From Candidatus Uhrbacteria bacterium (GTDB lineage: Bacteria > Patescibacteriota > Patescibacteriia > UBA9934 > GWF2-40-263): a DNA stretch of 64,000 nt. Location: assembly GCA_016188425.1 (NCBI GenBank), contig JACPHX010000006.1, positions 28,585-92,584 on the forward strand. The letters are read 5' to 3'. Numbering within the stretch: the first letter of the stretch is position 1; each line of letters begins with the position of its first letter. Made by a program: the position numbers and the translations under genes. This document shows, piece after piece, positions 15,438 to 62,305 of the stretch. Under the pieces are notes generated by a model. It was not told the origin of the DNA. It saw only the letters and a program-made list of their open reading frames with translations, and did not search any database.

Positions 15438-15592
15438 CCTCATCCGTCGTTCGCGGTGCCGGGGCGGCACATGCTCACTCCTCCTTCGGAGCCTGGGGCG
15501 TCCAAAACGTGAAGCAGTTCACGTTTTGGCCGTCCCCTTCGAATCCCGTCCGATCCGCCACACACAAAAAACCACCTTTTCAGGTGATTTTT

Positions 15593-15670: not shown

Positions 15671-15744
15671 ATGTATTTTGGTGGCGGCATGGTAACACGC
15701 GTCTTTTTTCTCTGCAACCAGTGCTTCAATCTCTTTCCACAGCC

Positions 15745-17106: not shown

Positions 17107-17127
17107 AGGGCGCAATAGAACCGAACG

Positions 17128-24443: not shown

Positions 24444-24601
24444 GGGGGAAGGGTGACCAAGGGTGAACAAGAGAGAACAAGGGTGAACAAGGGGGGGAAT
24501 TAGTAGGACGTTAACAATCAGAACAAATGAAACAAATCATTTTCATGTTTTTATAAAACTATTCGCTTCCTCCCCTCTTGTTCTATCTTGTTCACCCTCC
24601 T
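24444..24601. repeat. CAAGG-type short-tandem-repeat element, inverted pair (GGTGAACAAG units) flanking a 69-bp AT-rich spacer
   Basis: gggtgaccaagggtgaacaagagagaacaagggtgaacaagg ... cctcttgttctatcttgttcaccctcc. Confidence 0.6.
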
Positions 24602-31400: not shown

Positions 31401-34400
31401 GCCGATCCTTCATTGAGGCAGCGAGAAGAACATCCGTCGCCATTGATGACATTCCCATCATCGCACTCTTCCGGCGCATCTAAAGATCCGTTCCCGCAGG
31501 CGGCGTTTTCTATGCCTATATGGATACACGTAGGTCCGCAGCCAAACGGCAGCGGCCCGCCCGAAAAGGCCGCATCGCAATCTTCCCCCGCTTCAACCAC
31601 GCCGTTTCCGCAATGCGGATCGGTTATTTTAATAAGACTTCCTGTGTGTAAACAGCTTCCCGCACACCCGGCCGGGAGCGAAGCACCTATGGTCAATGTC
31701 GAATCGACCGTAGCAACATCCACGTTCGCATCTGCGGGCGGCACATCGACGTCCGCGCTGCTCCAAGGGGACCACGCCACGTTTGTTTGGAGATATTGCC
31801 CGGTAGGAGAACAGGCATCCGGTGCGCTCTTGGGGAGGCCGATGAATAGCTGCGTATCCCCTATCGATGTGGTTTGCGCCGCCTCCGGCCGCACTTCAAC
31901 GCTCGCCACGTCGCAGCGATCCCCTGTTCCGCTGGTCTTGAACACCCAGGAATAGTCATTGGTATAGCCGTGATTCTGATCGTCGTTGGATCCGTCAATG
32001 GATAAGGCAACGCCGCCGCTGGCATCCGTGATGTTGCCAGAGACGACCACGCGGTAGAACGTATCGGCAATCAGGGAACTGTTGAGGTTGATCCCCACTT
32101 CGCGGCAACCGCTCGCCGCCGGCGAGGTATCCAGACAGACGGGAGTCACGAGATACGCATTGCGATTAATGCGCGCCGCATCGCCATCGACGCACAATTC
32201 ATTCGGACATTGCCACAGGGAGTAATTCCCGGTGGTAAGGGCCTGGGTCGAGTTCATCTCCGTATTGAAACGGACGCCCGCGCTCGCATTGATGCAGGCC
32301 TCGCCGCAATCCGGCCACACATGCTCAACCTGCGGGTTGGGAAACTCCACCGTGATATCTGCCTGGCCGCCGACGGGGGTCGTGATCCCTGTGAGCAAGG
32401 CCACGATATGGGCAGGATCGGGATTGGTTTCCGCAAGAGCGGTGGCGGTGTTATCAAAATTGGTATCAGCCGTGACGACGGAAACGGATCCGGATTGGGT
32501 GCTGGACCAGGCAAATGAATAGGCCGCCGGATTCAGAACCAGACAGCGACCTGCCATGGGCAGTGCGTCATAATCCTGTGTCTTCGCTACAGAAGCAAGC
32601 GTTGTATCTGCGGGAGACACAAGTACGCCGCTGACGTCGCAATCTGTCCCGGCACGAACTTTGAAACGGAAAATGTAATCGCTTCCCAGTTTTTCCCCAA
32701 GCTGCGGGGGAACATCGATAGCCTTAAACAAGTTGCCTCTGAGAGTCACCCTGTAGGTGCTTCCAGCCGCAAACGGAGTCGCGGGCGTCCATAAAAAGAC
32801 TTTCGGTTTTGGATCAGAAGGAGGCGAGACAGCAAATGTCCCCGTCACGGGCGAAACCGTGTCACAGGGGTCATCCCCCGTATCCGTACACGTATCCACC
32901 GCGACGGCCGCGCCGTTAAAGGTGGTCAAATCCATCTTGGTTGTGAACTCCACCCGGATGATCGACGTGGTACAAGCATCCTCTCCCCACGCATCCCACG
33001 GGGAAGGCGATACAACCCGCTTGTCATCCGATGGATTGAGGGTACCGCGCGTGTCGATGGAACACTCTTCCAAGACGCGAGGAATGACAGGCAAGGGCCC
33101 CGTTGCAAACTGATACACAAAACTCGCGGCCACGGGTTGTTTGCACACATCCGCACAACTCCCGTCCGCACAGCACAAGTAGCCGATGCCAAACCCATGG
33201 CAATAATCCGCACTCTCTTCCCGGCAGTCGCTCACCGAAAACGGCAAAGGGTTGCTCGTATAACCGGCTCCCGCCGTTGTCGCCGTGACGGCACCCGTTG
33301 TCGCGCCGACCGGAACTTGCGCCCCGCTGATTTCATCGTTATCCCACGCCGCCACCACGGCAGGAACTCCATTGAAAAAATCCACCGTCCCCGTCGTCGT
33401 CCCAAGATTCTCGCCGTCCAGTTTAACAACGCTACGATTCGCCGCCGTCCATTCAGGCCCCGAAACGGGTGTCAATTTGCACAAAGCCGGCCCAGGTTGG
33501 TCATCGATGACCGTGAATGGCGCCGGGCCAGAACTCTGCGCGTCGGAAGATCGTTGCACGAAAATGTTATGGGTAAGGTATTCGATGGGATCCGGCGGAG
33601 CCACATACGTCGTCGGCACCTTCACAAGAATGGTGCTGTCGTTCCAAAGAGCCGCCCCGCACGCCGGTGGAAAATCTGTATCAGCCAAGGCGAAGACGCC
33701 CCCCCCTTTGTCAAAAGTAACCGTTCCTCCGAATCCGAAATGCGATCCAAGAATGGTGACATACTGCCCTGGTGGCCCCCAATCATTCACTTCCGCGCAA
33801 GAAATGGACGCCCCGCAATCCGCCACGGCATTGGCGACGGAGCAATGCGCTCCATCATTCGCTCCACCTGCACACGCATGCCAGCCAGAGACGACTTCAT
33901 TGATGACCGGCGGGTTGGCATCGGCATCCTGGGTAAAGACAAGTGGGTTGGATCCTTGTCGGAGCGGAAGGCAGACCCCGTCCGCAGGCGCGCACCGGTC
34001 GGTCGCCGAACAAAGTTCTGCCGTATTGATAGAACAGGCGTCCTCCCCAATAAACATCCTCACGTAATGCGATCCGGAACTCAAGAGCGGAGCCGTGGCG
34101 GTGGCGGACGTGCTGGACCATGTGGCTGTGTTGTAGGAAGTCGCTCTTGATGCATCGAAATAGACGGTCGAAGAAGCCGTATACGTCGAACCGAAATTCT
34201 TTCCAGAAAGCGTGACGCTGGACTGCCGCGGCCCGGTGGAAGGACTGATGGAACAAAGCCCGGGACGGACAATCGTGTTCACGTCAAAATCCGCAATGTG
34301 CGGGCCGTAGGTATCATCCGTCTGATCCGTTTTTGTCGGGTCGTCCCCCCGAAGGACTTCGATGGGGCCATCAACCGCTCCCACGGGAACCTCCACGACG

Positions 34401-35911
34401 ATCAACCGGTCCCCCCATTGCGGAGAGCCGCTGCAGACCGCGGCTGATACGGTCTTCTCGTCACCAGAAACAGGTGATCCTAAGAAAACCACTGTGCCCG
34501 CGCTCGCGGTTGGGCCGAAATTGCGGCCGATGATGCTGATGAGGTTTCCGACGGCTCCGTCTCCAGGCGTCACCTGGTCGATCCGCGGCCGCGTGTCTGC
34601 GGCACAGACGCCGGCGACGCACACTTCGTCCGTGCCGCAATCCGTATCGACGGAACAGGCGCCTCCTACGCATGCGCCGCAGTAATACTGGCTGGTCGTG
34701 CTTCCGCCGCAGTTCAGCTCGGTCTCGCCCAAATCCGTATCGATGGCGAGGTTGTTGCAATTGGCCGCGCGCAGGAACACCCTCGACGTCGTACTCGTCT
34801 CATTCGCCGCACAATCAAACCCCTTCATCCCGATCGTATACTGGCGGTTGGTCATGTACCCCGCCGCATCCCACTCCGATCCGTCATCGAAAAACAAACG
34901 CTCCGTGGTCGGGAACGGCTGCCCCGCAACGGGGAATGAATCGCTCGTCGAAAGGTCGGAGGAGGGGGTGAACAAGGTTCCATTGACGGAAAAATCGACG
35001 GCGTCTACCCCGACATCATCTTTGGTATAGGCCTGCAGGTCGATCGGGAACCCCCCCGCAAACACCACCGTGCCGTCCGCGGGCGCGTCGGCATGAACCG
35101 TGGATGGCGGAGCCGTGTCTATCGTTGCCAATGGGTCTATGGCAAACGAATACGTGCAGGGATGGGTCACGTCGCACACCAATGCCCAGCCGTTAGTTGA
35201 ACGGAGGATGGAAGGATCTGCCTTCACCGTATAACTCGTATCCGCCGGCAGACACGGAACCCCGGAACAGGTATTGGCGGGGGTAAACGTTACCCTCGAC
35301 CCAACGAGAGAAAACGTTCCTGGAACATCGTCCGACGTTGCGTCATCAATCACCCGCAACCCGCCGACAAGGGTGCTGTCTGGCAGCTGGATCCTGCTCA
35401 TCTCCGGGGGTCTCGTAAAAGAAAACTGGAGCAGCGTATTGGAAACGAATTCAAAACAATCTACGTTGAGCGGATTAAGCTGGAAGGAACGGCCCGGGGA
35501 CGGAGGGAATACCGGGTCTCTAGCCGGCTCCGATGAAGTCGTTCCCCCGCTGATCGCCGATGACAGGCGGCTGATGACAAAACTCGCAATCCCGTAGGCC
35601 CCCAAAATGAGAACGAGCCCGATCAGTCCGTTTCGAAGGATATCCCTCCCCTTCTTGACCCGCTTCTGATCACCGGCGGAGGTAAGGAACACCCATCCGC
35701 CCCACAGCACGATGAGCACTGCCAAAACTCCCAGGAAACCCAACAGGACGCTGATCAGTTTTGCGACGATCAATGGCACGCTGTCATTCACCCCCAGCCC
35801 CGCGATGTTCGCGAACGTGCCGGTAAGGCCGAAATTCGTTTGCGCCAACGCCACTTGCGGCATAAGCAGCAGAAGGAGTGGGAACAGACGAATGAGAAGG
35901 CGCTTGATCAC
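25454..35911 (-). CDS. Giant (3485 aa) surface protein: signal peptide plus TrbC/VirB2-like pilin membrane module, Ig/IPT-like regions, Myxococcus-type Cys-rich repeats (CGxGxxExGEECDDGN..GDGCS..C), C-terminal vWA domain with MIDAS
   Basis: N-terminus MIKRLLIRLFPLLLLLMPQVALA|QT...VLIVLWGGWVFLTSAGDQKRVKKGRDILRNGLIGLVLILGAYGIASFV. Cys repeats lie in roughly the second quarter of the protein plus a second cluster nearer the C-terminus. vWA DVVFVLDKTASMS...IIVSDSD at ~25860-26370. Confidence 0.7.
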   Translation of the reverse strand: MIKRLLIRLFPLLLLLMPQVALAQTNFGLTGTFANIAGLGVNDSVPLIVAKLISVLLGFLGVLAVLIVLWGGWVFLTSAGDQKRVKKGRDILRNGLIGLVLILGAYGIASFVISRLSSAISGGTTSSEPARDPVFPPSPGRSFQLNPLNVDCFEFVSNTLLQFSFTRPPEMSRIQLPDSTLVGGLRVIDDATSDDVPGTFSLVGSRVTFTPANTCSGVPCLPADTSYTVKADPSILRSTNGWALVCDVTHPCTYSFAIDPLATIDTAPPSTVHADAPADGTVVFAGGFPIDLQAYTKDDVGVDAVDFSVNGTLFTPSSDLSTSDSFPVAGQPFPTTERLFFDDGSEWDAAGYMTNRQYTIGMKGFDCAANETSTTSRVFLRAANCNNLAIDTDLGETELNCGGSTTSQYYCGACVGGACSVDTDCGTDEVCVAGVCAADTRPRIDQVTPGDGAVGNLISIIGRNFGPTASAGTVVFLGSPVSGDEKTVSAAVCSGSPQWGDRLIVVEVPVGAVDGPIEVLRGDDPTKTDQTDDTYGPHIADFDVNTIVRPGLCSISPSTGPRQSSVTLSGKNFGSTYTASSTVYFDASRATSYNTATWSSTSATATAPLLSSGSHYVRMFIGEDACSINTAELCSATDRCAPADGVCLPLRQGSNPLVFTQDADANPPVINEVVSGWHACAGGANDGAHCSVANAVADCGASISCAEVNDWGPPGQYVTILGSHFGFGGTVTFDKGGGVFALADTDFPPACGAALWNDSTILVKVPTTYVAPPDPIEYLTHNIFVQRSSDAQSSGPAPFTVIDDQPGPALCKLTPVSGPEWTAANRSVVKLDGENLGTTTGTVDFFNGVPAVVAAWDNDEISGAQVPVGATTGAVTATTAGAGYTSNPLPFSVSDCREESADYCHGFGIGYLCCADGSCADVCKQPVAASFVYQFATGPLPVIPRVLEECSIDTRGTLNPSDDKRVVSPSPWDAWGEDACTTSIIRVEFTTKMDLTTFNGAAVAVDTCTDTGDDPCDTVSPVTGTFAVSPPSDPKPKVFLWTPATPFAAGSTYRVTLRGNLFKAIDVPPQLGEKLGSDYIFRFKVRAGTDCDVSGVLVSPADTTLASVAKTQDYDALPMAGRCLVLNPAAYSFAWSSTQSGSVSVVTADTNFDNTATALAETNPDPAHIVALLTGITTPVGGQADITVEFPNPQVEHVWPDCGEACINASAGVRFNTEMNSTQALTTGNYSLWQCPNELCVDGDAARINRNAYLVTPVCLDTSPAASGCREVGINLNSSLIADTFYRVVVSGNITDASGGVALSIDGSNDDQNHGYTNDYSWVFKTSGTGDRCDVASVEVRPEAAQTTSIGDTQLFIGLPKSAPDACSPTGQYLQTNVAWSPWSSADVDVPPADANVDVATVDSTLTIGASLPAGCAGSCLHTGSLIKITDPHCGNGVVEAGEDCDAAFSGGPLPFGCGPTCIHIGIENAACGNGSLDAPEECDDGNVINGDGCSSRCLNEGSAAARTTCGDGHVAYSAAVGGEECDDGNRFNGDGCSSICLHEGTIAMSAAALIGICGNGTQEPGEDCDDNNAVDGDGCSSLCLNEGLRICDATHLTNCCGDPPGAGVAVVDPGEDCDDGNYTSGDGCSMNCLAEGSSSTYTTPSFCGDKATGIGEECEYAGTAVFTPAFTLAKIDLNAAVELDPLTKIATSTITAEANTVKGTAKYSVSCTCTDDTQCIDPDPSLPPVYACAETGCCYPRPTIVSSFPPLSGTPQICRNADIFVNFDQPMAEDLLDENVHLELVGGTCPAGYLTAEAVPNTWYAKAWHHIVSSFRWLFGYSVSAQSSVCYLPITFEVVDWVDTLPDPDAIYEKAQMHIKLSQALEPTAAGQTYQLVINTDDGDPATKIGLLSEHGVGLPKEAGGVHVIPFTTTSELCKVEQVVVQDLGDRAALPAAGNPRLPLHSQVFRKTNEEHRLLSTAFTLNQTQPLQSITGVYAWTYAWTILPSDSSAVFGNDADPDYATNDQYRRYTALGKTGEGTAMASASIFEGTDTTPSKVVNGSVDLFAPLCEQPYYFRDTDSALDDGTTFDPGESDPTYYQFFYCADVGDPASTADDLPRLEYVHVATPVTARGVFKESLYIANQTFVDEMNVSHVVKTDALGVKVLGNPGYLSAMDWYRVQNFQGSPQPIKIDGYDAVRDGNTAYIAAPTLGDDNKLHPNIFVVTTNPNAGDVAVQIFNQAIANWKFNTNVESFNVCVGMGTAAIATDADGKPVGCSWDGDCGDRQYCGADKPKLRRDTVRLTELLKMEDAIRTVAQRNGHCEVRSDIACRFDFECPIGEACLPSIPALSEGTFIRAQSVSRWPSWQAQLGNLVGGTLPIDSINRFSSCDSSGGFNPDPETCFDSTAGKFACAPGSHIYAYQGVGSTAYHLVGMLEYGDYPWSENIDQDTNDYSSLRAEYNVLHGYCNGATCVGGNRGGEDCTVGGNAACVDDPPASVPDGFYPNSFCQGTVVGASAICGDGIQGANEFCEVGQIKPVDCKLGYCKGGTRDGSYCSEATDCATTPGGSCDPATLKCVGGTAAANTTCTVATQATDCPSITCDRSVEKDGHKLVPCAPTAGLCAVTFAPGQLPYQRSCTTTADCESASLYCATLFCGGDPSFGACAVAANCKICSGGIRDGLHCVSDSNCLGSGTCGVSGAACTPMTQNVCAFTTDTGSSATCVAYQCGNGVPDEDEDCDEGFLNGTYGHCPSDCQIATGTQRNICGDGTLDAGESCDCGGLFSTALGGWATAAHCGTLRNGEYGSACAADCRGVGPSCGDGLVQTANNEICDPNDPATRYAKEPVGYCELDPTNYCTGDGVADCPVDTTPCVFPVLSNVCDQGDPVKIGGICSIPQNCDKGVPGDADYVRGSCSAQTYPIQYSLTCSTSGANACKGYDRVGSPNGGGQYCGDGRKTGTEECDDGNRNDNDGCTNSCKTAVCGDNVVNLGVESCDNGSQNGNGCNAPYGGVCTGCTRDCRFETVTGAFCGNNVIEGTELCDGLMAANSAGICSGIITFPSPGVLMGGACTFPGGACSTVGTSCKEIGYCDGGTNVGMRCVRDASVDALLDPSCVGGGGVCVVAKCAGDCASTCPPVFTSQKARMLPEIVNSTLVDSVTLFSQASGQFPNDAKVFLPVCSVLSTLTMDVRIPGAPAPHDTDVVFVLDKTASMSRAFGGSTRLQEAGDAVAAQIDLMRNRWQGSGKILRVGLAVFGDRAAVGQALDADTNLARNKVVNLTGADAAGSALVNAGVSVANGMFSGSADQVMIIVSDSDPVDSPAWNLVNIVKNPDGSLKNPARRVYSLTITNTMDPLVDTAGVERAGVMASVTNDLCAWGNASPTTPTQTQLQHYRTSTDLSSPRVCGPNTGVEYAYTAWTQSVFISAARFIVDSFSPFSVTVTGKDRDGNTVQSVGILTQGVGQIIPIPAGLLGCDGVSSIPINIRADCPTGCTISNVSAAACPAR

Positions 35912-38608: not shown

Positions 38609-38709
38609 AAAGGTCGAAGGTCAAAGTTCGAAGGCCGAAGGAAGGTTTTGTCTTTTTTAAAACAATGCCTTCTTCCAACCTTCGACCTTCAGAATTCGAC
38701 CTTCGACCT
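38609..38709. repeat. GAAGG-type short-tandem-repeat element, inverted pair (GTCGAAG 7-mer units) flanking ttttgtcttttttaaaacaatg
   Basis: aaggtcgaaggtcaaagttcgaaggccgaaggaagg ... ccttcttccaaccttcgaccttcagaattcgaccttcgacctt. Confidence 0.65.
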
Positions 38710-38733
38710 TATTTCTCAGCGATGTCTTCCCTT

Positions 38734-44687: not shown

Positions 44688-45263
44688 ATGCACCTCATCC
44701 TCGGCCTGGGCAATCCGGAACCAAAATACGTCTCCACCCGCCACAACCTCGGGTTCCTTACGGTGGATGCGTTTGCGAAGGAACATTCGTTTTCCTTTAC
44801 ATCGAAAGACTCGATGTCTGCCGACGTAGCAGAAGGACGCATCAATGAAGAGAAGGTCGTCTTGGCAAAACCAACGACGCATATGAATTTGAGCGGCGAG
44901 GCAGTGAAGAAGCTCGTGGAGAAGTACCGCGTCGCGCCAGACCAAATCATCGTCGTCTACGACGATGCAGACCTTCCGTTTGGCATGATCCGCACCGGCG
45001 TCAACAAAAGCGCCGGCGGGCACAATGGTGTGCAATCCATCATCGAGAACCTCCCCGCCGAGGCCCCGTTCCTGCGTGTCCGCATGGGCATCGGCCGTCC
45101 GACGGATACAAGCATCCCCCTGGATGTTTGGGTGTTAAGCAAGTGGACAGATGAGGAACAAAAGGCGTTGCCGGAATTGATTGCGCGCGGAACGCAAGCC
45201 ATTGACGCGCTCCGAACATCACCTCCCCCCCCCTCTCCTCAACGAGGAGAGAAACCAAATTGA
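44688..45263 (+). CDS. pth: Peptidyl-tRNA hydrolase
   Basis: MHLILGLGNPEPKYVSTRHNLGF... canonical Pth. Confidence 0.85.
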   Translation: MHLILGLGNPEPKYVSTRHNLGFLTVDAFAKEHSFSFTSKDSMSADVAEGRINEEKVVLAKPTTHMNLSGEAVKKLVEKYRVAPDQIIVVYDDADLPFGMIRTGVNKSAGGHNGVQSIIENLPAEAPFLRVRMGIGRPTDTSIPLDVWVLSKWTDEEQKALPELIARGTQAIDALRTSPPPPSPQRGEKPN

Positions 45264-45295
45264 CGTCCCCTTCCTTTTTCTCCCCCCTCTCAGAG

Positions 45296-45413
45296 TCCTG
45301 TCCTACAGGCATATAAGTGAATATTTATTAACTCGCTTCTCGCGCGATATGAAGATGTGCGCTCGTACGCTCAAACAGAATAAATATTCACTCATATGCC
45401 TGTAGGACAGGAC
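45296..45413 (+). ncRNA. Hairpin element family, copy 1 (candidate structured RNA/cis-regulatory element): 35-bp near-perfect inverted arms around a 49-nt core
   Basis: Arms gtcctgtcctacaggcatataagtgaatatttatt / aataaatattcactcatatgcctgtaggacaggac (1 mismatch). Core AACTCGCTTCTCGC...AGATGTG...GCTCGTACGCTCAAACAG is shared with the copy at 60883-61011, whose arms are unrelated in sequence but equally self-complementary. Confidence 0.5.
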
Positions 45414-46487
45414 GACCTCCCCTTCTGGCTCGGCTTCGCCCGTTTCTCCCGCTTTGGCCCCAAGAGCATGGAGAGGATCCTCAATTCCTTCCCTTCCATG
45501 GAATCCGCATGGCGCGCGCCGGCGGATCGTCTTGTGATGATCGGCCTTCGAACGCCGACGGTAGAAAAATTTATCCTTGAGCGCGAAGGTATCAATTTGG
45601 ATCAGGAGATGGAACTTTTGCAAACCCACGGCCTTCGTATTGTGACCAGGCGGGACGCCGATTACCCGAAACCATTCACGCACCTCCATGACGCGCCCGC
45701 GTATTTCTTTTTGCGTGGCTCGCTCCCCAACCCGAAACTTCCAACCCTCGCGGTCGTCGGCTCGCGCACCGCCACAAGCTACGCCCACGCGGCGATGCGT
45801 ATCCTCGTGGAACCAGTCGCCGAAAACGGCGTCGTTATCGTGAGCGGTCTCGCGCGCGGCATAGACACGCTCGCGCATGAATGCGCGTTGCGCATGGGCG
45901 CGCCCACGATCGCTGTCATCGGCTCCGGCCTGGATCGCGCCAGCATGTATCCGGCACAAAATCGCGACCTTGCAGAGAGGATCGTCAAAAGCGGCGGCGC
46001 CGTCATCTCGGAATACCCGGTAGGAAAAGAGGCACACCCTGAGCATTTCCCCATCCGCAACCGCCTCATCGCGGCCCTGGGGAAAGCGACGCTTGTTGTA
46101 GAGGGCGCTATCAAATCCGGCTCGCTCATCACCGCCAAAGAGACGCTCGACGTCGGCCGTGACGTCCTTGCGGTCCCCGGCCCCATCACCTCCCCGCTCT
46201 CGGAAGGACCAAACGCCCTCATTCGCGCCGGCGCCGTCCCCGCCACCAAACCGGAAGACATCTACCACTCGCTTGGCGTCACGCCCCTGGAAGAAAAGAC
46301 AACTGCCGTCGCCGAGAACCCAACCGAAGAGGCCATCCTTGCCTCTCTCTCGCAGGTCGCGATTCATGTAGACGACCTCATCCGACAAACAAAACTACCT
46401 GCGATGACCGTTTTGAGCACGCTCACGATATTGGAAATGAGGGGAGCGGCGAGGTCGCTGTTGGGGAAAATGTATACGCGTGGGTAA
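45396..46487 (+). CDS. dprA: DNA processing protein DprA (Smf)
   Basis: ...FWLGFARFSRFGPKSMERILNSF... N-terminal SAM-like region; Rossmann-like core LAVVGSRTATSYAH...VVISGLARGIDT. Start codon lies inside the right arm of the upstream hairpin element. Confidence 0.8.
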   Translation: MPVGQDDLPFWLGFARFSRFGPKSMERILNSFPSMESAWRAPADRLVMIGLRTPTVEKFILEREGINLDQEMELLQTHGLRIVTRRDADYPKPFTHLHDAPAYFFLRGSLPNPKLPTLAVVGSRTATSYAHAAMRILVEPVAENGVVIVSGLARGIDTLAHECALRMGAPTIAVIGSGLDRASMYPAQNRDLAERIVKSGGAVISEYPVGKEAHPEHFPIRNRLIAALGKATLVVEGAIKSGSLITAKETLDVGRDVLAVPGPITSPLSEGPNALIRAGAVPATKPEDIYHSLGVTPLEEKTTAVAENPTEEAILASLSQVAIHVDDLIRQTKLPAMTVLSTLTILEMRGAARSLLGKMYTRG

Positions 46488-46578
46488 CAAGTTTCAAGGG
46501 TCGCAAGGGCGACAAGGGTTTCAAGAGCAAATGATTTAAGACAAACGCCCTTGCGACCCTTATAACACTTGAAACCCT
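46481..46578. repeat. CAAGG-type short-tandem-repeat element, inverted pair (9-mers GTTTCAAGG/GTCGCAAGG/GCGACAAGG)
   Basis: tttcaagggtcgcaagggcgacaagggtttcaagag ... gcccttgcgacccttataacacttgaaacccttgcaacccc; between convergent dprA and ABC exporter genes. Confidence 0.65.
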
Positions 46579-46592
46579 TGCAACCCCTCTCT

Positions 46593-48365
46593 TTATTCCA
46601 AGAACCCTCCCGACTGTATCTCCCACAACTTCCGATACGTCCCTCCTTTTGCAAGCAACTCCTGATGCGATCCTGATTCCACGACTTGGCCTTGGTCTAC
46701 GACGATGACTCGGTCCATCTTGAGGATCGTCGACAGGCGGTGCGCGATGACGACCGCGGTTTTGTTTTCCATGAGCTCGATGAAGGCCTCTTGGATAAGG
46801 TGTTCGGATTCGGAGTCCAGGGATGACGTCGCTTCATCGAGAACAAGAATGGGCGCGTCTTTGAGGATCGCGCGGGCGATGGCGACGCGCTGGCGTTCAC
46901 CGCCGGAGAGTTTTATGCCACGCTCGCCCACCGGCGTGTTATATCCGTCGGGCATGTCCGTGATGAAGTCGTGGCAACGCGCTTCCTTGGCCGCCTGGAT
47001 GACTTCCTCGTCGGTCGCGTCGCGGCGGCCGTAGCGGATATTTTCCATGAGGGTGCGGTGGAACAAGATCGACTCTTGCGGGACGAGCGCGACTTGTTGA
47101 CGGAGACTCTCTTGTGTGACGCGCGCGATGTTCTGGCCGTCGATGAGGATGCGACCCTTCTGTAGGTCATGGAAACGCATCAGCAACTTCACAATGGTTG
47201 ATTTGCCCGCTCCAGACGAACCCACGATCGCCACCTTTTCCTTGGGACGGATGCTCAAATTGAACTGGTCGAGGACCTTCCGTTTGTTGGTATAAGCGAA
47301 GACGACATCCTGGAAATCGATGCGGGCGTTTTTCACCTTCAAAACATCCGCCCCGCGACGGTCGCGGATCTCCTGGGGCATCTTGATGATCTCCACCATC
47401 TCTTTGGACTGGGCCACTGCCTCGTACAAGCGACGCACCATCTTTCCCAGGTCGCCGCTGCGCCAGAAGAGAACCGTGAGATACCCTTGGAACAGCGCGA
47501 AGTCCCCGACCGTCAGCAGCCCCTTCTGCCAGAGGCCAACCGCGTAGTACAGCATGAAAAACTCGATCATGATGATGAGCCCCCATTGGATGGTTTGGTT
47601 CACCTCCGCGATGTTCCAGCTCAAGGTCTGCAGGCGGCGCAGGTCGTCGGTGCGATCCGCGAAGAGACGGCGCTCGTATCCTTGCCCGCCGAAAATCTTC
47701 ACGTTGAGGATGTTCGTCACGGCATCCGACGCGAGGCCGGTGACATCCGCGTCCGCCTTGGCGCTTGCTTCGTCGAATTTCGATTTGTACTTGAATACGT
47801 AGTGGTTCAGCACGGTGAGGACGACGAGCCACGCCAGCACCGCGCCGGAGATGAGCGCGCTCCTAGACCACATGACCACGATGGAACCAGTGACGAAGAT
47901 GAACAGCGGCCAGAGGTTCCAGATGATTTCCTCGGTAACGTCTTCGTAGGAGCGCGAGAGGCGGCGCAGCTTGCGGATCAGGGAACCGACGAACGTGTTG
48001 GCGAAAAACTTTGTCGAGTGGCCAAGGAGGGAGCTGAACCCCGTCCGTTCCAGGTCACGCATGACAAGCGGGGTCGTGTAATTCCAGAGCACGGTCGCGA
48101 CGCGGATGACGAGCCAGCCACCCACGTGGAAGACGAAGATAATGAGCAAGGAATGGATGAGCGCCTGCGCGACATCAGGCGTGGCTGCCGGCGCATCGTA
48201 GAGCGTATCGAAAAACTTCTTGTAATAAATGGGCGCGAACAAGCTCAACGCCTCCCCGATCCCTACCGCCGCGATGATGGCAAATTCCAACCAGAACACC
48301 TCGGCACGGTGCTTCAAAAAAAGCCGCCAGACATCTTGTGCTCTCACGCGGGGTTTCATGCGCAC
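46593..48365 (-). CDS. ABC exporter, fused permease plus ATPase (MsbA/lipid-multidrug type)
   Basis: 6 TM N-terminal domain; Walker A GSSGAGKST, signature LSGGERQRVAIARA, Walker B ILVLDEATS. Confidence 0.8.
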   Translation of the reverse strand: MRMKPRVRAQDVWRLFLKHRAEVFWLEFAIIAAVGIGEALSLFAPIYYKKFFDTLYDAPAATPDVAQALIHSLLIIFVFHVGGWLVIRVATVLWNYTTPLVMRDLERTGFSSLLGHSTKFFANTFVGSLIRKLRRLSRSYEDVTEEIIWNLWPLFIFVTGSIVVMWSRSALISGAVLAWLVVLTVLNHYVFKYKSKFDEASAKADADVTGLASDAVTNILNVKIFGGQGYERRLFADRTDDLRRLQTLSWNIAEVNQTIQWGLIIMIEFFMLYYAVGLWQKGLLTVGDFALFQGYLTVLFWRSGDLGKMVRRLYEAVAQSKEMVEIIKMPQEIRDRRGADVLKVKNARIDFQDVVFAYTNKRKVLDQFNLSIRPKEKVAIVGSSGAGKSTIVKLLMRFHDLQKGRILIDGQNIARVTQESLRQQVALVPQESILFHRTLMENIRYGRRDATDEEVIQAAKEARCHDFITDMPDGYNTPVGERGIKLSGGERQRVAIARAILKDAPILVLDEATSSLDSESEHLIQEAFIELMENKTAVVIAHRLSTILKMDRVIVVDQGQVVESGSHQELLAKGGTYRKLWEIQSGGFLE

Positions 48366-48397
48366 ATTTTATCACGGAACAAAACAAAAATCCCTTT

Positions 48398-49252
48398 TTA
48401 TCGCTGACGTTTCCGTCTCTGTTCATATCGCAACAACGCCTCTGGCGTAGAAACCCAATCCCTCCCCTCTTTGTGCGCTTCCAACTTTCCGGAGCGGGCA
48501 AGCAAATTCAAATATTTTGCCGAGTAGTCACTCTGCCTGCTGAGCGCCTCCAATGCAATGTATCGCTCGCTCTTTTTTGAAGTGGGGCTCAAAGCCCGCA
48601 GATACATATCCAAGGAGCGTTCCGCGCATTGCGCTATGAATCGAACAAGGGGTTCCTTTTTCCCCTCATCCGCTTGCGCAAGCACGCGATCATATTTCTT
48701 TCGATCGTTTTTTAACACGATCGTCAGCGGAAAACCCTCTCGAAGCAACAGTACGTTCATGAGCAGGCGAGAGGTGCGCCCGTTTCCATCAAAAAATGGA
48801 TGGATGGCGGTAAGTTGATGGTGCACCAGCGCGGCGAGCTCGATCGGGTGCAATTCGGTTTGCTGTTTGGTAATCCAGCGAACCAGCTCATGCATCATGC
48901 CGGAAACATCGGTCGCCTCAGGAGGGCGATGCTTCGCACCCGTGATCGCCACCGGGCCATTCCGATACACCCCCGCCCATTCCGGATCGTTCTTTTGCAG
49001 CACCAATTGATGCAACTGCCGAATCAACCGCTCGGAGACCGTCGCGCGATGATCTTTCGCGATCAGCTCATATAAAAACTCCAAAGCGAGCTGATGATCC
49101 TTCGCCTCCAAATGATCTTTCAACGGTTTCCCCTTAATTGTGATCCCCTCCTGGATAACCAGGAACGTCTCATGGAGCGTAAGACTGTTCCCCTCGATGC
49201 CATTTGAATTGTAGGTCATTTCAATTTGAAATTGCTCCTGCAATTTCTTCAC
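48398..49252 (-). CDS. fic: Fic-family protein (class II, intramolecular inhibitory helix), probable AMPylase
   Basis: HPFFDGNGRTSR Fic motif; N-terminal SNGIEGN matches the (S/T)xxxE(G/N) inhibitory motif; C-terminal wHTH-like region. Confidence 0.8.
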   Translation of the reverse strand: MKKLQEQFQIEMTYNSNGIEGNSLTLHETFLVIQEGITIKGKPLKDHLEAKDHQLALEFLYELIAKDHRATVSERLIRQLHQLVLQKNDPEWAGVYRNGPVAITGAKHRPPEATDVSGMMHELVRWITKQQTELHPIELAALVHHQLTAIHPFFDGNGRTSRLLMNVLLLREGFPLTIVLKNDRKKYDRVLAQADEGKKEPLVRFIAQCAERSLDMYLRALSPTSKKSERYIALEALSRQSDYSAKYLNLLARSGKLEAHKEGRDWVSTPEALLRYEQRRKRQR

Positions 49253-49698: not shown

Positions 49699-49784
49699 GG
49701 TTCGCAAGGGTTTCAAGGGTGACAAGAGTCTCAAGGGCATGTTTTTCCAAGTGCGCTTGCAACCCTTGAAACCCTTCCCCCTCC
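49699..49784. repeat. CAAGG-type short-tandem-repeat element, inverted pair, immediately upstream of the topA promoter
   Basis: ggttcgcaagggtttcaagggtgacaagagtctcaagggc ... gcgcttgcaacccttgaaacccttccccctcc; followed by TTGACT-N16-TAGAAT. Confidence 0.65.
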
Positions 49785-54847: not shown

Positions 54848-54986
54848 ATTAAGGGCGCAAAGGGCGCAGGAGGTCCAAGGGGCGCAAGGGGAGGGATGAG
54901 AAACACGAAGTCGAAAGTGTAATGCGCGCTTGCTCGCCTATATTCCTGCGCCCCTTGGACCCCTTGCGCCTCTTGCGCCTTCCTTA
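54848..54986. repeat. CAAGG-type short-tandem-repeat element, inverted pair (GGGCGCAAG 9-mers) between parA and parB
   Basis: aagggcgcaaagggcgcaggaggtccaaggggcgcaagggg ... cctgcgccccttggaccccttgcgcctcttgcgcc. Confidence 0.65.
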
Positions 54987-58630: not shown

Positions 58631-59333
58631 TAGTCTACCCTCTTTATCTCAATCTCCCCAAACGCTCCCGCTTGTACTGCCTGCACTGATCGAGAACGCA
58701 ATAGCTCCAAGAGAGCCAAGAAACTGACGACTACGTCAACTTTTCTCGACGCCCCTTTCACGACGTCCGAGAACAACATCCACGCCTTCCCCAAGATCGC
58801 TCCCCGCAGCGCCTCCATCCGTTCCTGTACCGTTGCCACCCGCGCAACCAGTCTCGTTTCCAGAGCAAAAAATGGTTCAAGCCGTTTGAGGATATCTTGG
58901 AAGCAAGAAGAGAGCTTGGAGGGATTCACGGAAGGAGGAGGGAAAAAACCGGAGAGCTTGGGGAGGGACATTCGGTCTCTGGCAAACATCGTCTGCGAGT
59001 GCGCGCCGAAGAGATTCTCGATATTCTTTGATGCCTCGATATACTGCTCATACAAACGCAGGCGTGCCGCGAGATCACCTTCTGGCTCATCTTCCATGAC
59101 GACAGACGGCATGAGCGCCCGCGCTTTTATGAGAAGGAGGGCGCAGGCCACCGTAAGAAAGTCTGCAATCTCCGTCGACGGGACTTCGTGAGCGTCCAGG
59201 TAACGCAGATACTCCTCTGTGACTTGGGAGAGGGAGACGTCGGTGATTGGCAGTCTGTTCTCACGGACAATCTCAAGCAAGAGGTGAAGGGGGCCGGAGA
59301 ATTGTTCGGTCGAAATTTCAAATGGCACAAGTG
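58630..59333 (-). CDS. scpA: Segregation and condensation protein A
   Basis: ...PFEISTEQFSGPLHLLLEIVRENRLPITDVSLSQVTEEYLRYL... ScpA N-terminus; probable GTG start ~59333. The ORF upstream extension is encoded by a repeat element. Confidence 0.7.
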
Positions 59334-59444
59334 AAGGGTTGAAAGGGCGGAAAGGCCTGAAAGGGCGGAAAGGTTCGATCAAAGCGAGACGACAGACCCG
59401 TTTCCTTTCCGCCGTCTCCGCCCTTTCAGGCCTTTCCGCCTTCG
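59332..59444. repeat. GAAAGG-type short-tandem-repeat element, near-perfect inverted pair (GCGGAAAGG 9-mers)
   Basis: gaagggttgaaagggcggaaaggcctgaaagggcggaaagg / tcctttccgccgtctccgccctttcaggcctttccgccttcgc around a 29-nt spacer; between aspS stop and scpA start. Confidence 0.7.
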
Positions 59445-59446
59445 CA

Positions 59447-60856
59447 TTAGTTCTCTTCCGGCTTGCGGACAAGGATATTCGCCTCCTTAAGCGATTTCTC
59501 CGAGAGGACGCTGGGCGCGTCCATGACGGCCGTGTGACCCGATCCCGTCATGGGGAATGCCTGCACTTCGCGCAGGTACGACTCGCCCGTGAGGTTCATG
59601 ATGTTGCGCTCAATGCCCAACCCAATGCCGCCATGCGGGGGCGCGCCGTACTTGAACGCCTCAAGCATGTGGCCGACCGATTCTTTCACTTCTTCCTGTG
59701 TGTACCCCATCGTCTTGTACGTAGCTCCCAACACGGCCGGATCATGGGCGCGAATGCTTCCCCCACCGCTCTCGTAGCCGTTGCAGACCAAGTCGTACTG
59801 GGTCGTAAGAATGTGCTCGATATTACGGCCCGCGAGATGGTCTTCCAGGAATTCTGGTTTTGGCTGGGAGAATGGGTTGTGCGTAAACGTCCAGCCACCC
59901 TCCTCTGTTTTCTCAAAGAAAGGAAAGTCAACAACCCAAGCGTAAGCGAGGACTCCTTTTTGCTTATCCTCCTCTGTGCGCAAGTCGAACTTATCGGCTC
60001 CGTACTTCGCCATCGATTCCTGGTACGTTACACGCGGGAATGGCTTTTGTTTGATTGTATACCCCATGGATTCGACGGTATGCGTGATCATCAATTCAAC
60101 CATGTGCATCACGTCCTCGCGCTCCACAAAACTCATCTCGATATCAATTTGTGTGTGCTCGAATCCGCGATCCGCACGCGGATCCTCGTCTCGGAAACAA
60201 CGCGCGGTCTGGAAATATCGTTCAACACCCGCGACCATCAATAGCTGTTTGTACTGCTGCGGGCTCTGCGGGAGTGCAAAGAACTTCCCTGGCTGCAGAC
60301 GCGAAGGAACGATAAAATCACGGGATCCTTCTGGCGTCGCTTTGGTGAGGTACGGCGTCTCGATTTCCGTGAAGCGATTTCCAAGAAGGAATTGGCGGCA
60401 GTTCTGGATAAACGTATTGCGCACCGTCAGGTTGCGGTACAGACGGTCGCTGCGTAAGTCGAGATATCGATGCTTGAGACGCAACTCTTCGTTGATGCCG
60501 CTTGTGTCCTTGTCGATCTCAAACGGCAGCGGTTCACATCGGTTCAAGATGACAACCCGTTTGGCCGCCAGCTCGATTGTTCCTGTCGGCTGGTCGGCGC
60601 GAACTTGCTTCGCGCCGCGCGTTTTTATTTCCCCCTCGATCTCCAGGACGTACTCCGTCTTAATTTCCCCCACCAGCGCCGCGATCTCTCCCGAGAGATC
60701 GGGTTTATAGCAGACAACCTGCAAGACGCCAGATGCATCCCGCAAATCGATAAACGCAAGTTTGTCCCCCATCACCCTCACCGTCCTCACCCATCCTTTG
60801 ACGATGACGTTCTTCCCCGTCATCGTCGGCGTCTCACTAATCCATGTTCGTTGCAT
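59447..60856 (-). CDS. aspS: Aspartyl-tRNA synthetase, bacterial-type motifs but short (no GAD insertion)
   Basis: OB-fold N-terminus, ALPQSPQQYKQLLMVAGVERYFQTARCFRDEDPRADRGFEHTQIDIEMSF motif 2, GGGSIRAHD..GLGIERN motif 3; ~470 aa. Confidence 0.85.
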   Translation of the reverse strand: MQRTWISETPTMTGKNVIVKGWVRTVRVMGDKLAFIDLRDASGVLQVVCYKPDLSGEIAALVGEIKTEYVLEIEGEIKTRGAKQVRADQPTGTIELAAKRVVILNRCEPLPFEIDKDTSGINEELRLKHRYLDLRSDRLYRNLTVRNTFIQNCRQFLLGNRFTEIETPYLTKATPEGSRDFIVPSRLQPGKFFALPQSPQQYKQLLMVAGVERYFQTARCFRDEDPRADRGFEHTQIDIEMSFVEREDVMHMVELMITHTVESMGYTIKQKPFPRVTYQESMAKYGADKFDLRTEEDKQKGVLAYAWVVDFPFFEKTEEGGWTFTHNPFSQPKPEFLEDHLAGRNIEHILTTQYDLVCNGYESGGGSIRAHDPAVLGATYKTMGYTQEEVKESVGHMLEAFKYGAPPHGGIGLGIERNIMNLTGESYLREVQAFPMTGSGHTAVMDAPSVLSEKSLKEANILVRKPEEN

Positions 60857-60882
60857 ATGTTGAAGCGCGTAGAGGGCGTGGC

Positions 60883-61011
60883 CTGTTCTGCCGGAGGATT
60901 GTTTATTCGTGTTCGAGCGTACGAGCCGAGCCCACATCTCTACGCAGGGCGACAGCGAGAAGCGAGTTAATAAACAATCCGGAGGCAGAACAGGCCACGC
61001 CCGTAGCTATG
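60883..61011 (-). ncRNA. Hairpin element family, copy 2 (opposite orientation): 34-bp inverted arms around a 61-nt core
   Basis: Arms gggcgtggcctgttctgccggaggattgtttatt / aataaacaatccggaggcagaacaggccacgccc. Core rc = AACTCGCTTCTCGC...GAGATGTG...GCTCGTACGCTCGAACACG, matching copy 1's conserved blocks. Lies in the asnS-aspS intergenic region, in the sense orientation of both genes. Confidence 0.5.
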
Positions 61012-62305
61012 GCGTAATTCGATTAATCAATCGTGGGAACGGAATCGTCTCGCGGATATGTTCGAGGCCGCAGATCCAAGCAGTGATGCGTTCCAAACCA
61101 TACCCGAAACCCGAGTGCGGGACCGATCCGTATTTGCGCAGATCCAAATACCAGTTGAACGGCTCGACCGGAAGGTTGTGCTCCTTGATCCGGGCGAGCA
61201 ACATATCGTAATCGTCCTCGCGTTGGCTTCCGCCGATAATTTCGCCGTAGCCCTCTGGAGCGAGCAGATCCGCATTCAGCACGCGCGTGGCGTCCTGCGG
61301 GTCGCGCTTCATGTAGAACGCTTTGACGACGGCTGGATACTTCTCCACAAATATGGGACGGTCGTAGAGCTTTGTGAGCATCGTCTCATCATCCGCACCC
61401 AGGTCATCGATATCTTTGATGTCGGATCCCATCCCGCGCAACTTCGCGACCGCTTCCGCGTGCGTCATGCGCACAAAAGGGGCCTGAACCTTCTCGAGCG
61501 CCTCGATGTTCCTCTCGAGAATCGCGAGTTCCTTCCGGTTCTGCGTGAGGACGTCTTTGACAATCCGGAGGATTAGTCCTTCCTGAATAGCAAGGTTCCC
61601 TTCGTGCTCAACAAATGCCGCCTCTGCATCCATCATCCAGAATTCCGTGAGATGGCGGCGGGTCTTGGATTTCTCGGCGCGGAAAACAGGACCGAAGTCG
61701 AAACAACGGCCGAGGCTCATGACCGCGGCTTCCAGATACAGCTGGCCGGATTGGGAGAGATACGCCTTCGTCCATTCAAAGTAGTCGATCTCAAAAAGCT
61801 CGGTCGTCCCTTCGCAGGCATTGGGTGTGAGGATCGGGGAGTCGATCTTGATGAAACCGATCTCGTTTAGGTACGCGAACGTCGCGTTGATGATCGTATT
61901 GCGTACGCGCTGTATCGCCCATTGCTTTTCGCTGCGCAACCACAAATGACGGTTGTCCAAGAGGAAATCGGGGCCATGCTCCTTCTTCCCAATCGGATAA
62001 TCGTCTGGAGCGAGTTGGATGACTCGCAGCGACATCCCGTCGAGCTCAAACCCGGAGGGCGAACGGCTGTCCTCTTTGACCTTGCCGGCCAAGACGACCG
62101 ATGACTCGATGCGGAGCGACTGGAGGGCATTCCACACCTCCTCCGAGGTACCTGCTTTGGAAAAGACCGCCTGGATACGCCCCGTGCCGTCACGGAATTG
62201 CAGGAAAAAAATCTTCCCGCTGGAGCGGAAATTGTAGACCCACCCCTTCAACTCAATTTCCTGGCCAACATGTTCCGACACCCTAGAAATAAAGGAGGAA
62301 ATCAT
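61007..62305 (-). CDS. asnS: Asparaginyl-tRNA synthetase
   Basis: FRAEKSKTRRHLTEFWMMDAE (AsnRS motif 2), GGSQRED, GFGYGLERI motif 3. Confidence 0.85.
   Translation of the reverse strand: MISSFISRVSEHVGQEIELKGWVYNFRSSGKIFFLQFRDGTGRIQAVFSKAGTSEEVWNALQSLRIESSVVLAGKVKEDSRSPSGFELDGMSLRVIQLAPDDYPIGKKEHGPDFLLDNRHLWLRSEKQWAIQRVRNTIINATFAYLNEIGFIKIDSPILTPNACEGTTELFEIDYFEWTKAYLSQSGQLYLEAAVMSLGRCFDFGPVFRAEKSKTRRHLTEFWMMDAEAAFVEHEGNLAIQEGLILRIVKDVLTQNRKELAILERNIEALEKVQAPFVRMTHAEAVAKLRGMGSDIKDIDDLGADDETMLTKLYDRPIFVEKYPAVVKAFYMKRDPQDATRVLNADLLAPEGYGEIIGGSQREDDYDMLLARIKEHNLPVEPFNWYLDLRKYGSVPHSGFGYGLERITAWICGLEHIRETIPFPRLINRITP

What the first reader, a model, noticed from the sequence alone, without database searches (positions are those of the whole stretch)
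45296..45413. Two-copy hairpin element with a conserved core and fully co-varying 30-35-bp arms: candidate novel structured RNA or cis-regulatory element
Copy 1 (45296-45413, + orientation, pth-dprA spacer) and copy 2 (60883-61011, - orientation, asnS-aspS spacer) share core blocks. The blocks are AACTCGCTTCTCGC (14/14), AGATGTG and GCTCGTACGCTC (12/12, containing palindromic CGTACG), ending (A/G)AACA(C)G. The flanking arms are completely different in sequence yet each forms a near-perfect 34-35-bp inverted repeat ending TTTATT/AATAAA at the core junction. Conservation of pairing with total sequence divergence is the signature of a selected RNA (or cruciform) structure, not of transposon terminal inverted repeats. 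Both copies lie in the sense orientation of their flanking genes, immediately 5' of a start codon. The dprA ATG is inside the downstream arm, and aspS begins ~27 nt after the arm.
Basis: seen in the sequence. Interest (0 to 1): 0.75.

Follow-up and report, generated by a model that had tools for sequence, protein, structure and literature searches.

The report
Hairpin repeat with conserved loop
Two gene junctions in this Candidatus Uhrbacteria (candidate phyla radiation) genome, and two more in a distant relative, carry an inserted ~120-base hairpin whose long stem differs in every copy while its loop sequence is identical; this looks like a new small family of dispersed DNA/RNA elements whose function is unknown.

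Summary
Copy W1 (45295-45413, +) and copy W2 (60874-61002, -) each have 34-35-nt near-perfect inverted arms. These enclose a centre with identical blocks: AACTCGCTTCTCGC, AGATGTG and GCTCGTACGCTC(A/G)AACA. Beyond the inner 11 bp the arms are unrelated.

I found two more copies (A and B) in a related MAG whose AspS is only 76% identical. They again have different arms and lie at a non-orthologous junction. The invariant part is AACTCGCT...CGCTCARACA.

In relatives the same junctions are compact: pth/dprA overlap or lie 4 nt apart, asnS-aspS are 29 nt apart, and the convergent genes at the A/B site overlap. Every copy is therefore a lineage-specific gain.

There is no Rfam family, no transposase nearby, no conserved terminal repeats, no clear target duplication and no sigma-70 promoter or U-tract terminator. 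No further copy appears in about 267 kb of held sequence.

A and B sit between convergent genes, which argues against a 5'-UTR regulator. The stems have no G·U pairs on the sense strand, so RNA-level selection is not shown; DNA-level arm homogenisation is an equal alternative.

Best reading (about 0.4): a low-copy, dispersed, MITE-like hairpin element recognised through its loop. When co-transcribed it forms a long helix that buries the dprA start codon.

The parts
45295..45329 (+). W1 5' arm (35 nt). The inner 11 nt (GAATATTTATT) are shared with W2; the outer 24 nt are specific to this copy.
45330..45343 (+). W1 conserved 5' strand of the centre, AACTCGCTTCTCGC. AACTCGCT is invariant in all four copies.
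45342..45362 (+). W1 variable middle, a possible short hairpin P2 (GCGCG / UGCGC). It contains AGATGTG, which is shared only with W2.
   Evidence: weak support
45361..45378 (+). W1 conserved 3' strand of the centre, GCTCGTACGCTCAAACAG. CGCTCARACA is invariant in all four copies.
45379..45413 (+). W1 3' arm (35 nt). It contains the only possible dprA start, ATG 45396-45398, and six non-conserved codons.
60969..61002 (-). W2 5' arm (34 nt). It starts 5 nt after the asnS stop codon.
60908..60968 (-). W2 centre (61 nt): AACTCGCTTCTCGC, a variable middle with AGATGTG, then GCTCGTACGCTCGAACACG.
60874..60907 (-). W2 3' arm (34 nt). It ends 17 nt before the aspS start. Its 3x3 mismatch with the 5' arm is a self-inverted 7-mer (CCTCCGG / CCGGAGG).
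44688..45263 (+). pth (peptidyl-tRNA hydrolase), the gene upstream of W1. Its stop codon lies 31 nt before the element.
45396..46487 (+). dprA, the gene downstream of W1. Its conserved N-terminus (DLPFW) begins at codon 7, just past the arm.
61007..62305 (-). asnS (class II aminoacyl-tRNA synthetase), the gene upstream of W2.
59447..60856 (-). aspS, the gene downstream of W2. The start at 60856 is supported by the conserved MQRTW in relatives.

Best explanation
W1 and W2 belong to a small dispersed family of hairpin elements found so far in two distant Candidatus Uhrbacteria-type genomes.

The part that defines the family is a pair of pyrimidine-rich strands. These are about AACUCGCUUCUC on the 5' side and UCGUACGCUCARACA on the 3' side. 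They flank a short variable segment and sit as a large loop on top of a long, almost perfect stem that is specific to each copy (17-35 bp).

Shown:
- The four copies are homologous in the centre only.
- They occupy non-orthologous gene junctions.
- Each is a gain relative to close or distant relatives, where the junction is compact.

Inferred:
- The element is, or was, mobile and non-autonomous. Whatever copies or keeps it recognises the loop sequence displayed on a folded single strand, not terminal repeat sequences.
- The arms stay complementary either by selection for a helix or by DNA-level template switching that homogenises and extends inverted repeats.
- Where it lies inside an operon (pth-dprA, asnS-aspS) it is co-transcribed. 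Its 34-35-bp RNA helix then acts as a barrier or double-strand-specific (RNase III-type) processing site that uncouples the two cistrons.
- In W1 the helix holds the dprA start codon, so dprA expression would depend on processing or unwinding.
For: Family membership and conserved centre: searches show AACTCGCT...CGCTCARACA in all four copies. The 14-mer and a 13-mer are identical between genomes whose AspS is only 76% identical.

Copy-specific stems.

Gain at compact junctions:
- pth/dprA overlap by 4 nt, or are 4 nt apart, in relatives.
- asnS-aspS are 29 nt apart in L013.
- The GT4 gene and the 154-aa gene overlap in L017, whose 154-aa protein is 88% identical to that of L013. L013 instead has a 624-bp composite palindrome holding A and B.

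Within that composite, the centre flanks are 19/19 and 35/36 identical between the two halves, while the surroundings are about 75-80% identical.

Orientation follows the upstream gene in 4 of 4 copies. It does not follow replication direction, because GC skew is uniform across the window.

The only dprA start lies in the helix.

The closest described precedent for a hairpin repeat with a conserved core that binds or is cut by RNase III is the Correia element (abstract of PMC2649163).
Against: - Only four copies, effectively three independent ones because A and B are an inverted duplication.
- No consistent target-site duplication. CTAC flanks W2 with a 1-nt offset, only GA flanks W1, and nothing flanks A.
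- No conserved terminal repeats.
- No transposase, recombinase or reverse transcriptase among 40 ORFs of the window scanned with Pfam.
- No further copy in about 78 kb of this organism or about 190 kb of relatives.
- In L013, terminator-like hairpins with T-runs lie between each gene end and A/B, so those copies may not be co-transcribed.
- RNAalifold finds almost no conserved fold inside the centre.
- There are no transcript data, so RNase III processing is purely inferred.
Confidence: 0.4

Rival explanations
1. It is a host-selected structured RNA and not mobile DNA. It could be a cis element at cistron boundaries (terminator, stabiliser, processing site, or translational gate for dprA/aspS) or a small family of sRNA genes. 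In this reading the long stem P1 and the short hairpin P2 evolve by compensatory change, and the internal-loop strands are the functional site.
For: - Very stable folds.
- Five double changes and no one-sided change among the 17 innermost pairs.
- Compensated differences between the arms of A and B.
- One covarying pair at the base of P2.
- The centre is identical across very divergent genomes while neutral parts are saturated, which suggests purifying selection on every copy.
- Sense orientation relative to the upstream gene in 4 of 4 copies.
- The dprA start codon is sequestered in the helix.
Against: - No G·U pair among about 105 stem pairs on the sense strand.
- The three single mismatches are A·C on the sense strand, and G·U only on the antisense strand.
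- The boundary between conserved and unrelated arm sequence is abrupt.
- The element is absent from orthologous junctions in all relatives examined.
- A and B have no downstream gene and lie beyond terminator-like sites.
- No Rfam match.
- No promoter or U-tract.
Confidence: 0.3
2. It is a DNA-level site. The centre would be a binding or recombination site read on DNA, either single-stranded and folded like an integron attC site or double-stranded. The long arms would be by-products of template switching that perfects and extends any inverted repeat. No RNA function is involved.
For: - The stems are purely Watson-Crick.
- The W2 mismatch is a self-inverted 7-mer, the kind of change spacer inversion by template switching makes (PMC8604942 abstract).
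- The W2 3' arm contains ACAATCCTC. In A and B this sequence is unpaired centre-flank sequence, as if the W2 5' arm had been copied from the 3' side.
- L013 holds a ~250-bp-armed inverted duplication.
- The spacing between the two conserved blocks differs by 11 nt between W1 and W2, about one helical turn.
Against: - A 49-71-nt spacer makes cruciform extrusion from duplex DNA unlikely.
- No recombinase gene nearby.
- attC core sites (RYYYAAC / GTTRRRY) are absent.
- Other palindromic spacers in the same window are much less perfect (74-90%), so no general homogenising force is evident.
- L013's genome is otherwise poor in such palindromes, yet A and B still have arms.
Confidence: 0.17
3. It is a classical MITE moved by a transposase that binds its terminal inverted repeats.
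For: Its size, its non-coding nature, its intergenic insertion and its gain relative to relatives. The inner 11 bp are shared by W1 and W2.
Against: The outer arms are unrelated in W1, W2 and A. There is no consistent direct target duplication. No transposase lies in the window. A and B lack the TTTATT/AATAAA junction altogether.
Confidence: 0.06
4. It is chance similarity or an assembly artefact.
For: None beyond the small number of copies.
Against: Shuffle expectations are well below the observed matches. The copies are identical in three independent assemblies of this organism and in two strains of the relative.
Confidence: 0.01

Closest known systems
Correia repeat-enclosed elements (CREE/NEMIS) of Neisseria and similar transcribed MITE-like repeats (ERIC, RUP, BOX)
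   Same: Elements of 100-150 bp at gene junctions, with inverted arms around a core. They are co-transcribed as hairpins. [quoted passage not shown] They are gained and lost between related genomes.
   Different: In those families the terminal repeats are the conserved part, copies number tens to hundreds, and a TA target duplication is seen. Here the arms are specific to each copy, only the centre is conserved, the copy number is low (2 per ~78 kb), and no target duplication is evident.
Integron attC sites
   Same: Imperfect palindromes of 57-141 bp lying 3' of genes in a fixed orientation. They are recognised as a folded single strand by structure more than by sequence, and have a variable terminal hairpin.
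   Different: attC conservation is at the outer ends (RYYYAAC...GTTRRRY), which are absent here. There is no integrase and no cassette array, and the neighbours are housekeeping genes. The conserved part here is the loop.
Quasipalindromes perfected or extended by template switching
   Same: Arms kept perfectly complementary while diverging between loci, small inverted patches, and outward growth of inverted repeats (PMC8604942 and PMC13100816 abstracts).
   Different: That is a mutational process, not an element. It does not explain why the same 14- and 13-nt blocks are conserved in two distant genomes.
TIGR stem-loop arrays of phages and candidate phyla radiation bacteria
   Same: Variable but always palindromic stems enclosing loops with short conserved motifs, in the same bacterial group (PMC12045711).
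   Different: Those are tandem arrays next to a tas gene, with box C/D motifs and two spacers per loop. Here the units are solitary, no RUGAUGA/CUGA motif is present, and no Nop-domain gene appears among the ORFs scanned.
REP/REPIN elements mobilised by RAYT transposases
   Same: Intergenic hairpin-forming repeats, sometimes arranged as inverted doublets.
   Different: REP sequences themselves form the conserved stem. No GTAG-type REP and no RAYT gene are seen here.

Membership tests
MITE (e.g. Correia/CREE) | Terminal inverted repeats conserved among copies | tested here: not met
   Only the inner 11 bp are shared, and only by W1 and W2. The outer arms of W1, W2 and A are unrelated.
MITE (e.g. 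Correia/CREE) | Direct target-site duplication flanking each copy | tested here: inconclusive
   CTAC flanks W2 with a 1-nt offset, only GA flanks W1, and nothing flanks A. The empty site in L017 is too divergent to define junctions.
MITE (e.g. Correia/CREE) | Small, non-coding, multi-copy, variably present between related genomes | tested here: met
   113-130 bp with no consistent ORF. Four copies at non-orthologous junctions, absent from syntenic junctions in relatives.
MITE (e.g. Correia/CREE) | A parent insertion sequence or transposase with matching ends | not testable with these tools
   None among 40 window ORFs. The rest of the genome could not be reached.
Integron attC | R''/R' core sites RYYYAAC ... 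GTTRRRY at the ends | tested here: not met
   The ends are GTCCTG..CAGGAC, GGGCGTGG..CCACGCCC and GCCAGAAC..GTCCTGGC.
Integron attC | Array of cassettes next to an intI integrase gene | tested here: not met
   The flanking genes are pth, dprA, asnS and aspS, and no integrase was found.
Intrinsic terminator | Short G+C-rich stem followed by a U-tract | tested here: not met
   No terminator-like site in either element region, and no T-run after any of the four copies.
Any Rfam 15 family | Covariance-model score at or above the gathering threshold | tested here: not met
   Nothing at gathering threshold. Only chance-level miRNA-hairpin hits appear at E up to 10.
TIGR stem-loop array | Tandem units with box C/D motifs and dual spacers, adjacent to a tas (Nop-domain) gene | tested here: not met
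   The units are solitary and 15 kb apart, there is no UGAUGA/CUGA motif, and Pfam found no Nop domain (definition from PMC12045711).
RNase III-processed intercistronic hairpin (functional analogy only) | At least ~20 bp of uninterrupted double-stranded RNA in a transcript, cleaved in vivo | not testable with these tools
   Helix length is sufficient at 21-35 bp. Transcription and cleavage are unknown.
Selected structured RNA (general criterion) | Covariation including G·U intermediates, in homologous positions, beyond what relatedness or DNA-level copying gives | tested here: inconclusive
   5 double changes in 17 pairs and compensated A/B differences. However there are 0 G·U pairs on the sense strand, only 2-4 sequences, and only 5 weak pairs are predicted inside the centre.

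The most novel reading that the evidence does not exclude
This could be a new class of element in candidate phyla radiation bacteria. A conserved pyrimidine-rich internal loop would be the recognition module, displayed on an arbitrary long helix. The element would spread between gene junctions as a folded single strand (RNA or ssDNA). Alternatively it could be a new structured RNA motif that gates operon genes such as dprA through a double-strand-specific nuclease. Either way, the usual logic of palindromic repeats (conserved arms, free centre) is inverted.
Probability: 0.25. Interest if true: 0.75.

Novelty: new variant of a known kind. Interest (0 to 1): 0.5.

Why it matters
Candidate phyla radiation genomes are tiny and tightly packed, and very little is known about their non-coding elements. 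Here, operon junctions that overlap in relatives have acquired ~120-bp hairpins. One of them buries the only start codon of dprA, a gene central to DNA uptake, on which these organisms are thought to depend.

If the conserved loop is a recognition site, it defines either a new way for a small element to move or a new post-transcriptional control point. In both cases the sequence-free stem would make it invisible to repeat finders that look for conserved arms.

The finding is also a caution. Perfectly co-varying long stems can arise from DNA-level processes and are not by themselves proof of RNA selection.

Tried and rejected
**Collection scans**
- The 19-mer TTATTAACTCGCTTCTCGC gave nothing in genome contigs.
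- In metagenome contigs it gave only 4 chance hits without arms or the second block. In hindsight the TTATT prefix was too specific to this organism.
- The two-block pattern found nothing in viral contigs.

**Searches for further copies**
- The search for related loci with DprA found only relatives at 35-42% identity.
- blastn-short, an nhmmer profile of four centres, and a covariance model of W1+W2 found no further copy in the window or in loci L001-L021.
- Extending the source genome by 6.8 kb to the right (L011) and 7.4 kb to the left (L020) gave no new copy.

**Interpretations rejected**
- A sigma-70 promoter inside the centre: none by consensus scan. A weak xAxAAT follows CGCTCA in three copies but has no matching -35.
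- A rut-like site or a small ORF in the centre: C is not much greater than G, and the length differences are not multiples of three.
- TIGR/box C/D, attC, REP/RAYT, 6S, SRP and ribozyme readings: defining motifs are absent or there is no Rfam hit.
- Orientation set by replication: GC skew is uniform.
- G·U strand-bias analysis of the other palindromes in the window gave no usable signal.
- The near match AACTTGCTTCGCGC inside aspS (60602-60615) is judged to be chance.
- Phage and plasmid BLAST of the L013 composite hit only an accessory hairpin module, not the centre.

Full report
**What is there**

The window comes from a Candidatus Uhrbacteria (candidate phyla radiation, Patescibacteria) metagenome-assembled genome. 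Its DprA and Der proteins carry that name in NCBI.

Copy W1 has 35-nt arms at 45295-45329 and 45379-45413, 97% complementary, around a 49-nt centre. Copy W2, read on the minus strand, has 34-nt arms at 61002-60969 and 60907-60874, 91% complementary, around a 61-nt centre.

The two centres share:
- AACTCGCTTCTCGC (14/14)
- AGATGTG
- GCTCGTACGCTC(A/G)AACA(C)G

The arm-centre junctions are TTTATT and AATAAA. Shuffled sequence gives far fewer motif matches. Both units fold far better than shuffles, with z = -10.5 and -9.1. Both are present unchanged in independent Logan assemblies of two sequencing runs.

Copy 2 lies 9 nt from the stated coordinates. aspS starts 17 nt after the arm, not about 27. 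The inner 11 bp of the arms are homologous between the copies, and both of their differences are compensated.

**Gene context**

Pfam and synteny give LytR-der-pth-[W1]-dprA and ruvX-recO-asnS-[W2]-aspS-scpA-scpB.

The conserved N-terminus of DprA starts at codon 7 (DLPFW), directly after the arm. A TAA at 45381 closes the reading frame upstream. ATG 45396 is therefore the only possible start, and it lies in the middle of the 35-bp helix.

**Each copy is a gain**

- In two relatives with the same gene order, pth and dprA overlap by 4 nt or are 4 nt apart. Here the spacer is 132 nt.
- In L013/L014 (AspS 76% identical), asnS and aspS are 29 nt apart and the aspS start ATGCAACGAAC is conserved. 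Here the spacer is about 150 nt.
- Other relatives have an extra gene between asnS and aspS, with tiny spacers.
- The closest DprA relative (55% identity) has a different, unrelated hairpin with a T-run in its pth-dprA spacer.

**More family members**

A short-word BLAST of the centre against all fetched loci found both blocks in L013/L014. They lie in a 624-bp spacer between a glycosyltransferase gene and a convergent 154-aa gene.

- Unit A (L013 15304-15416, +) has 21-nt arms GCCAGAACGCGAAAAATTGGC / GCCAATTTTTCGCGTCCTGGC. Its centre is TCGGCTGCGG-AACTCGCTTCTCGC-CTGCGG-GCTCGTACGCTC-AGACAATCCTCGCCCGTGCTGACGCACCC.
- Unit B (15579-15708, -) has arms GGACGTAAAACTTGGCC and the same centre flanks, but a different middle.

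Both fold as long hairpins. All four copies share AACTCGCT and CGCTCARACA. W1, W2 and A also share TTCTCGC and GCTCGTA.

The arms of W1, W2 and A are unrelated. The arms of B are about 80% like those of A, and the differences are compensated.

In L017, whose 154-aa protein is 88% identical to that of L013, the two convergent genes overlap. There is no spacer at all, so this is an empty site.

The L013 spacer is itself a large imperfect palindrome. Its two halves are about 75-80% identical, but the centre flanks are 19/19 and 35/36 identical. This indicates stronger constraint on the centre than on its surroundings.

**Limits of the search**

No further copy was found by profile HMM or covariance model. 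The search covered the window, 14 kb of extra sequence from the same organism, and about 190 kb from relatives.

Copy number and distribution are therefore known only from this small sample: 2 per ~78 kb here, 2 per 21 kb in L013, and 0 in five other lineages sampled at about 20 kb each.

**What it is not**

- It matches no Rfam family.
- It has no sigma-70-like promoter and no hairpin-plus-U-tract terminator.
- No transposase, recombinase, reverse transcriptase or Nop-domain gene appears among 40 ORFs scanned.
- It has no attC core sites and no box C/D motifs (definition from PMC12045711).
- There is no similarity in phage or plasmid collections, except for an accessory hairpin module in L013.
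- Orientation does not follow replication. GC skew is uniformly negative across the window, yet W1 and W2 point in opposite directions.
- Orientation does follow the gene just upstream in all four copies. However, A and B are one inverted duplication, so this amounts to about three independent observations.

**RNA or DNA?**

The evidence is weaker than that.

- Among about 105 stem pairs there is no G·U on the sense strand. The three single mismatches (W1, A, B) are all A·C on that strand, and G·U only on the antisense strand.
- No pair shows a one-sided change.
- Conservation drops abruptly, from 9/11 identical to 3/23, at 11 bp from the loop.
- The W2 mismatch is a self-inverted 7-mer.
- The W2 3' arm contains ACAATCCTC, which in A and B is unpaired centre-flank sequence. 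This looks as if the opposite arm had been copied from it.

These features are what template switching between inverted repeats produces. It homogenises arms, inverts spacers and expands repeats (abstracts of PMC8604942 and PMC13100816).

On the other hand, a 49-71-nt spacer argues against cruciforms in duplex DNA, so the hairpin can only matter in a single strand, either RNA or ssDNA. Arms are also present in the L013 genome, which is otherwise poor in palindromes. Inside the centre, RNAalifold supports only the base of a short variable hairpin.

**Most likely mechanism**

I commit, at about 0.4, to a dispersed, non-autonomous, MITE-like element. Its conserved loop is the recognition module and its stem is free in sequence.

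Shown: homology of the centres, copy-specific arms, gain at compact junctions, non-orthologous positions, and the location of the dprA start.

Inferred: mobility, recognition as a folded strand, co-transcription within the pth-dprA and asnS-aspS operons, and an RNA-level effect of the 34-35-bp helix. That effect could be a barrier to exonucleases or a substrate for a double-strand-specific nuclease. It would have to be resolved for dprA to be translated.

The closest described precedent is the Neisseria Correia element, which has a conserved core, binds IHF, and is cleaved or protected by RNase III (PMC2649163 abstract). It differs in having conserved arms.

The main rivals are a host-selected structured RNA (0.3) and a DNA-level site with template-switch-made arms (0.17). 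A classical MITE (0.06) and chance (0.01) are unlikely.

**Verdict**

This is a real and so far undescribed small family with an unusual conservation pattern. The specific reading of the first stage, a cis-regulatory 5' leader proven by covariation, is only partly supported. I rate interest at 0.5. It could rise sharply if a wide scan shows many copies with ever-different stems, or if transcripts show processing at the helix.

Noticed in passing
window 18799-18966, 24460-24598, 38610-38710, 46491-46566, 49706-49776, 54854-54979, 59329-59457: Many other gene junctions carry long palindromic spacers. Their arms are tandem 7-11-nt units (AAGGGTGAAC.., GAAAGGGCG.., AAGGTCG..), a different unit at each locus. 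Read in the sense of the flanking genes, the 5' arm is the purine-rich, AAGG-containing one in the 6 of these 7 whose flanking-gene direction could be assigned (49706-49776 could not). Two of them sit where the relative L013 has overlapping or 23-nt junctions (parA-parB and aspS-scpA). They are less perfect (74-90%) than the arms of W1 and W2.
   Followed up: partly
L013 15204-15827 (also L014): A 624-bp composite palindrome lies between convergent genes: terminator-like hairpins, a GTTACTTTCTTT..AAAGAAAGTAAC hairpin, unit A, a central hairpin, then the mirror image with unit B. It is absent in L017, where the two genes overlap.
   Followed up: partly
L013 15229-15291; L018 (Caballeronia sp. 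NK8 pNK81 1123688-1123749): The hairpin module GTTACTTTCTTTG..CAAAGAAAGTAACCAAAGAAA of the L013 composite is 82% identical over 62 nt to an unannotated intergenic repeat. That repeat is present in up to 22 places per replicon in the best-matching Caballeronia/Burkholderia chromids. This is an unexpected resemblance across phyla.
   Followed up: partly
window 15388-15615: Beside tRNA-Asp (15593-15670, -) there are extra copies of its 3' end (TGGCGGACCGGACGGGATTC) in both orientations. There are also two copies of a palindromic terminator-like sequence (AAAAAATCACCTTTTCAGGTGATTTTTT) 177 nt apart. This looks like the scar of an integration at the tRNA.
   Followed up: no
window 8977-9077 and 9074-9478: The tmRNA gene (minus strand, 115.6 bits) is followed directly at its 3' end by a hairpin with 31-nt arms that contains a second inner hairpin.
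   Followed up: no
window 46593-49252: In relatives dprA is followed directly by topA. Here an ABC transporter gene and a Fic-domain gene on the opposite strand lie between them.
   Followed up: no
window 25454-35911: A single 3485-aa ORF on the minus strand. It is flanked by genes with pilin-like and Ig-like domains.
   Followed up: no
window 60602-60615: Inside aspS, the mRNA contains GCGCGAAGCAAGUU. This could pair 12/14 with the conserved 5' strand of W2, which lies 340 nt upstream on the same transcript. It is within chance expectation (0.64 per window).
   Followed up: no
L020 11215-12495 versus L021 1627-2889 (left of window position 2610): Assemblies of the same organism from two sequencing runs differ here. 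One has a 426-aa EGF/MopE-like gene, and the other has two opposite-strand genes of 167 and 250 aa. This is a strain-level rearrangement.
   Followed up: no
L013 versus L014, whole loci: The two strains are 98.5% identical, but the differences are clustered in blocks (for example 9083-9997 and 16904-18667). This suggests mosaic recombination. The 624-bp palindromic spacer carries only one substitution and one 1-nt indel.
   Followed up: no
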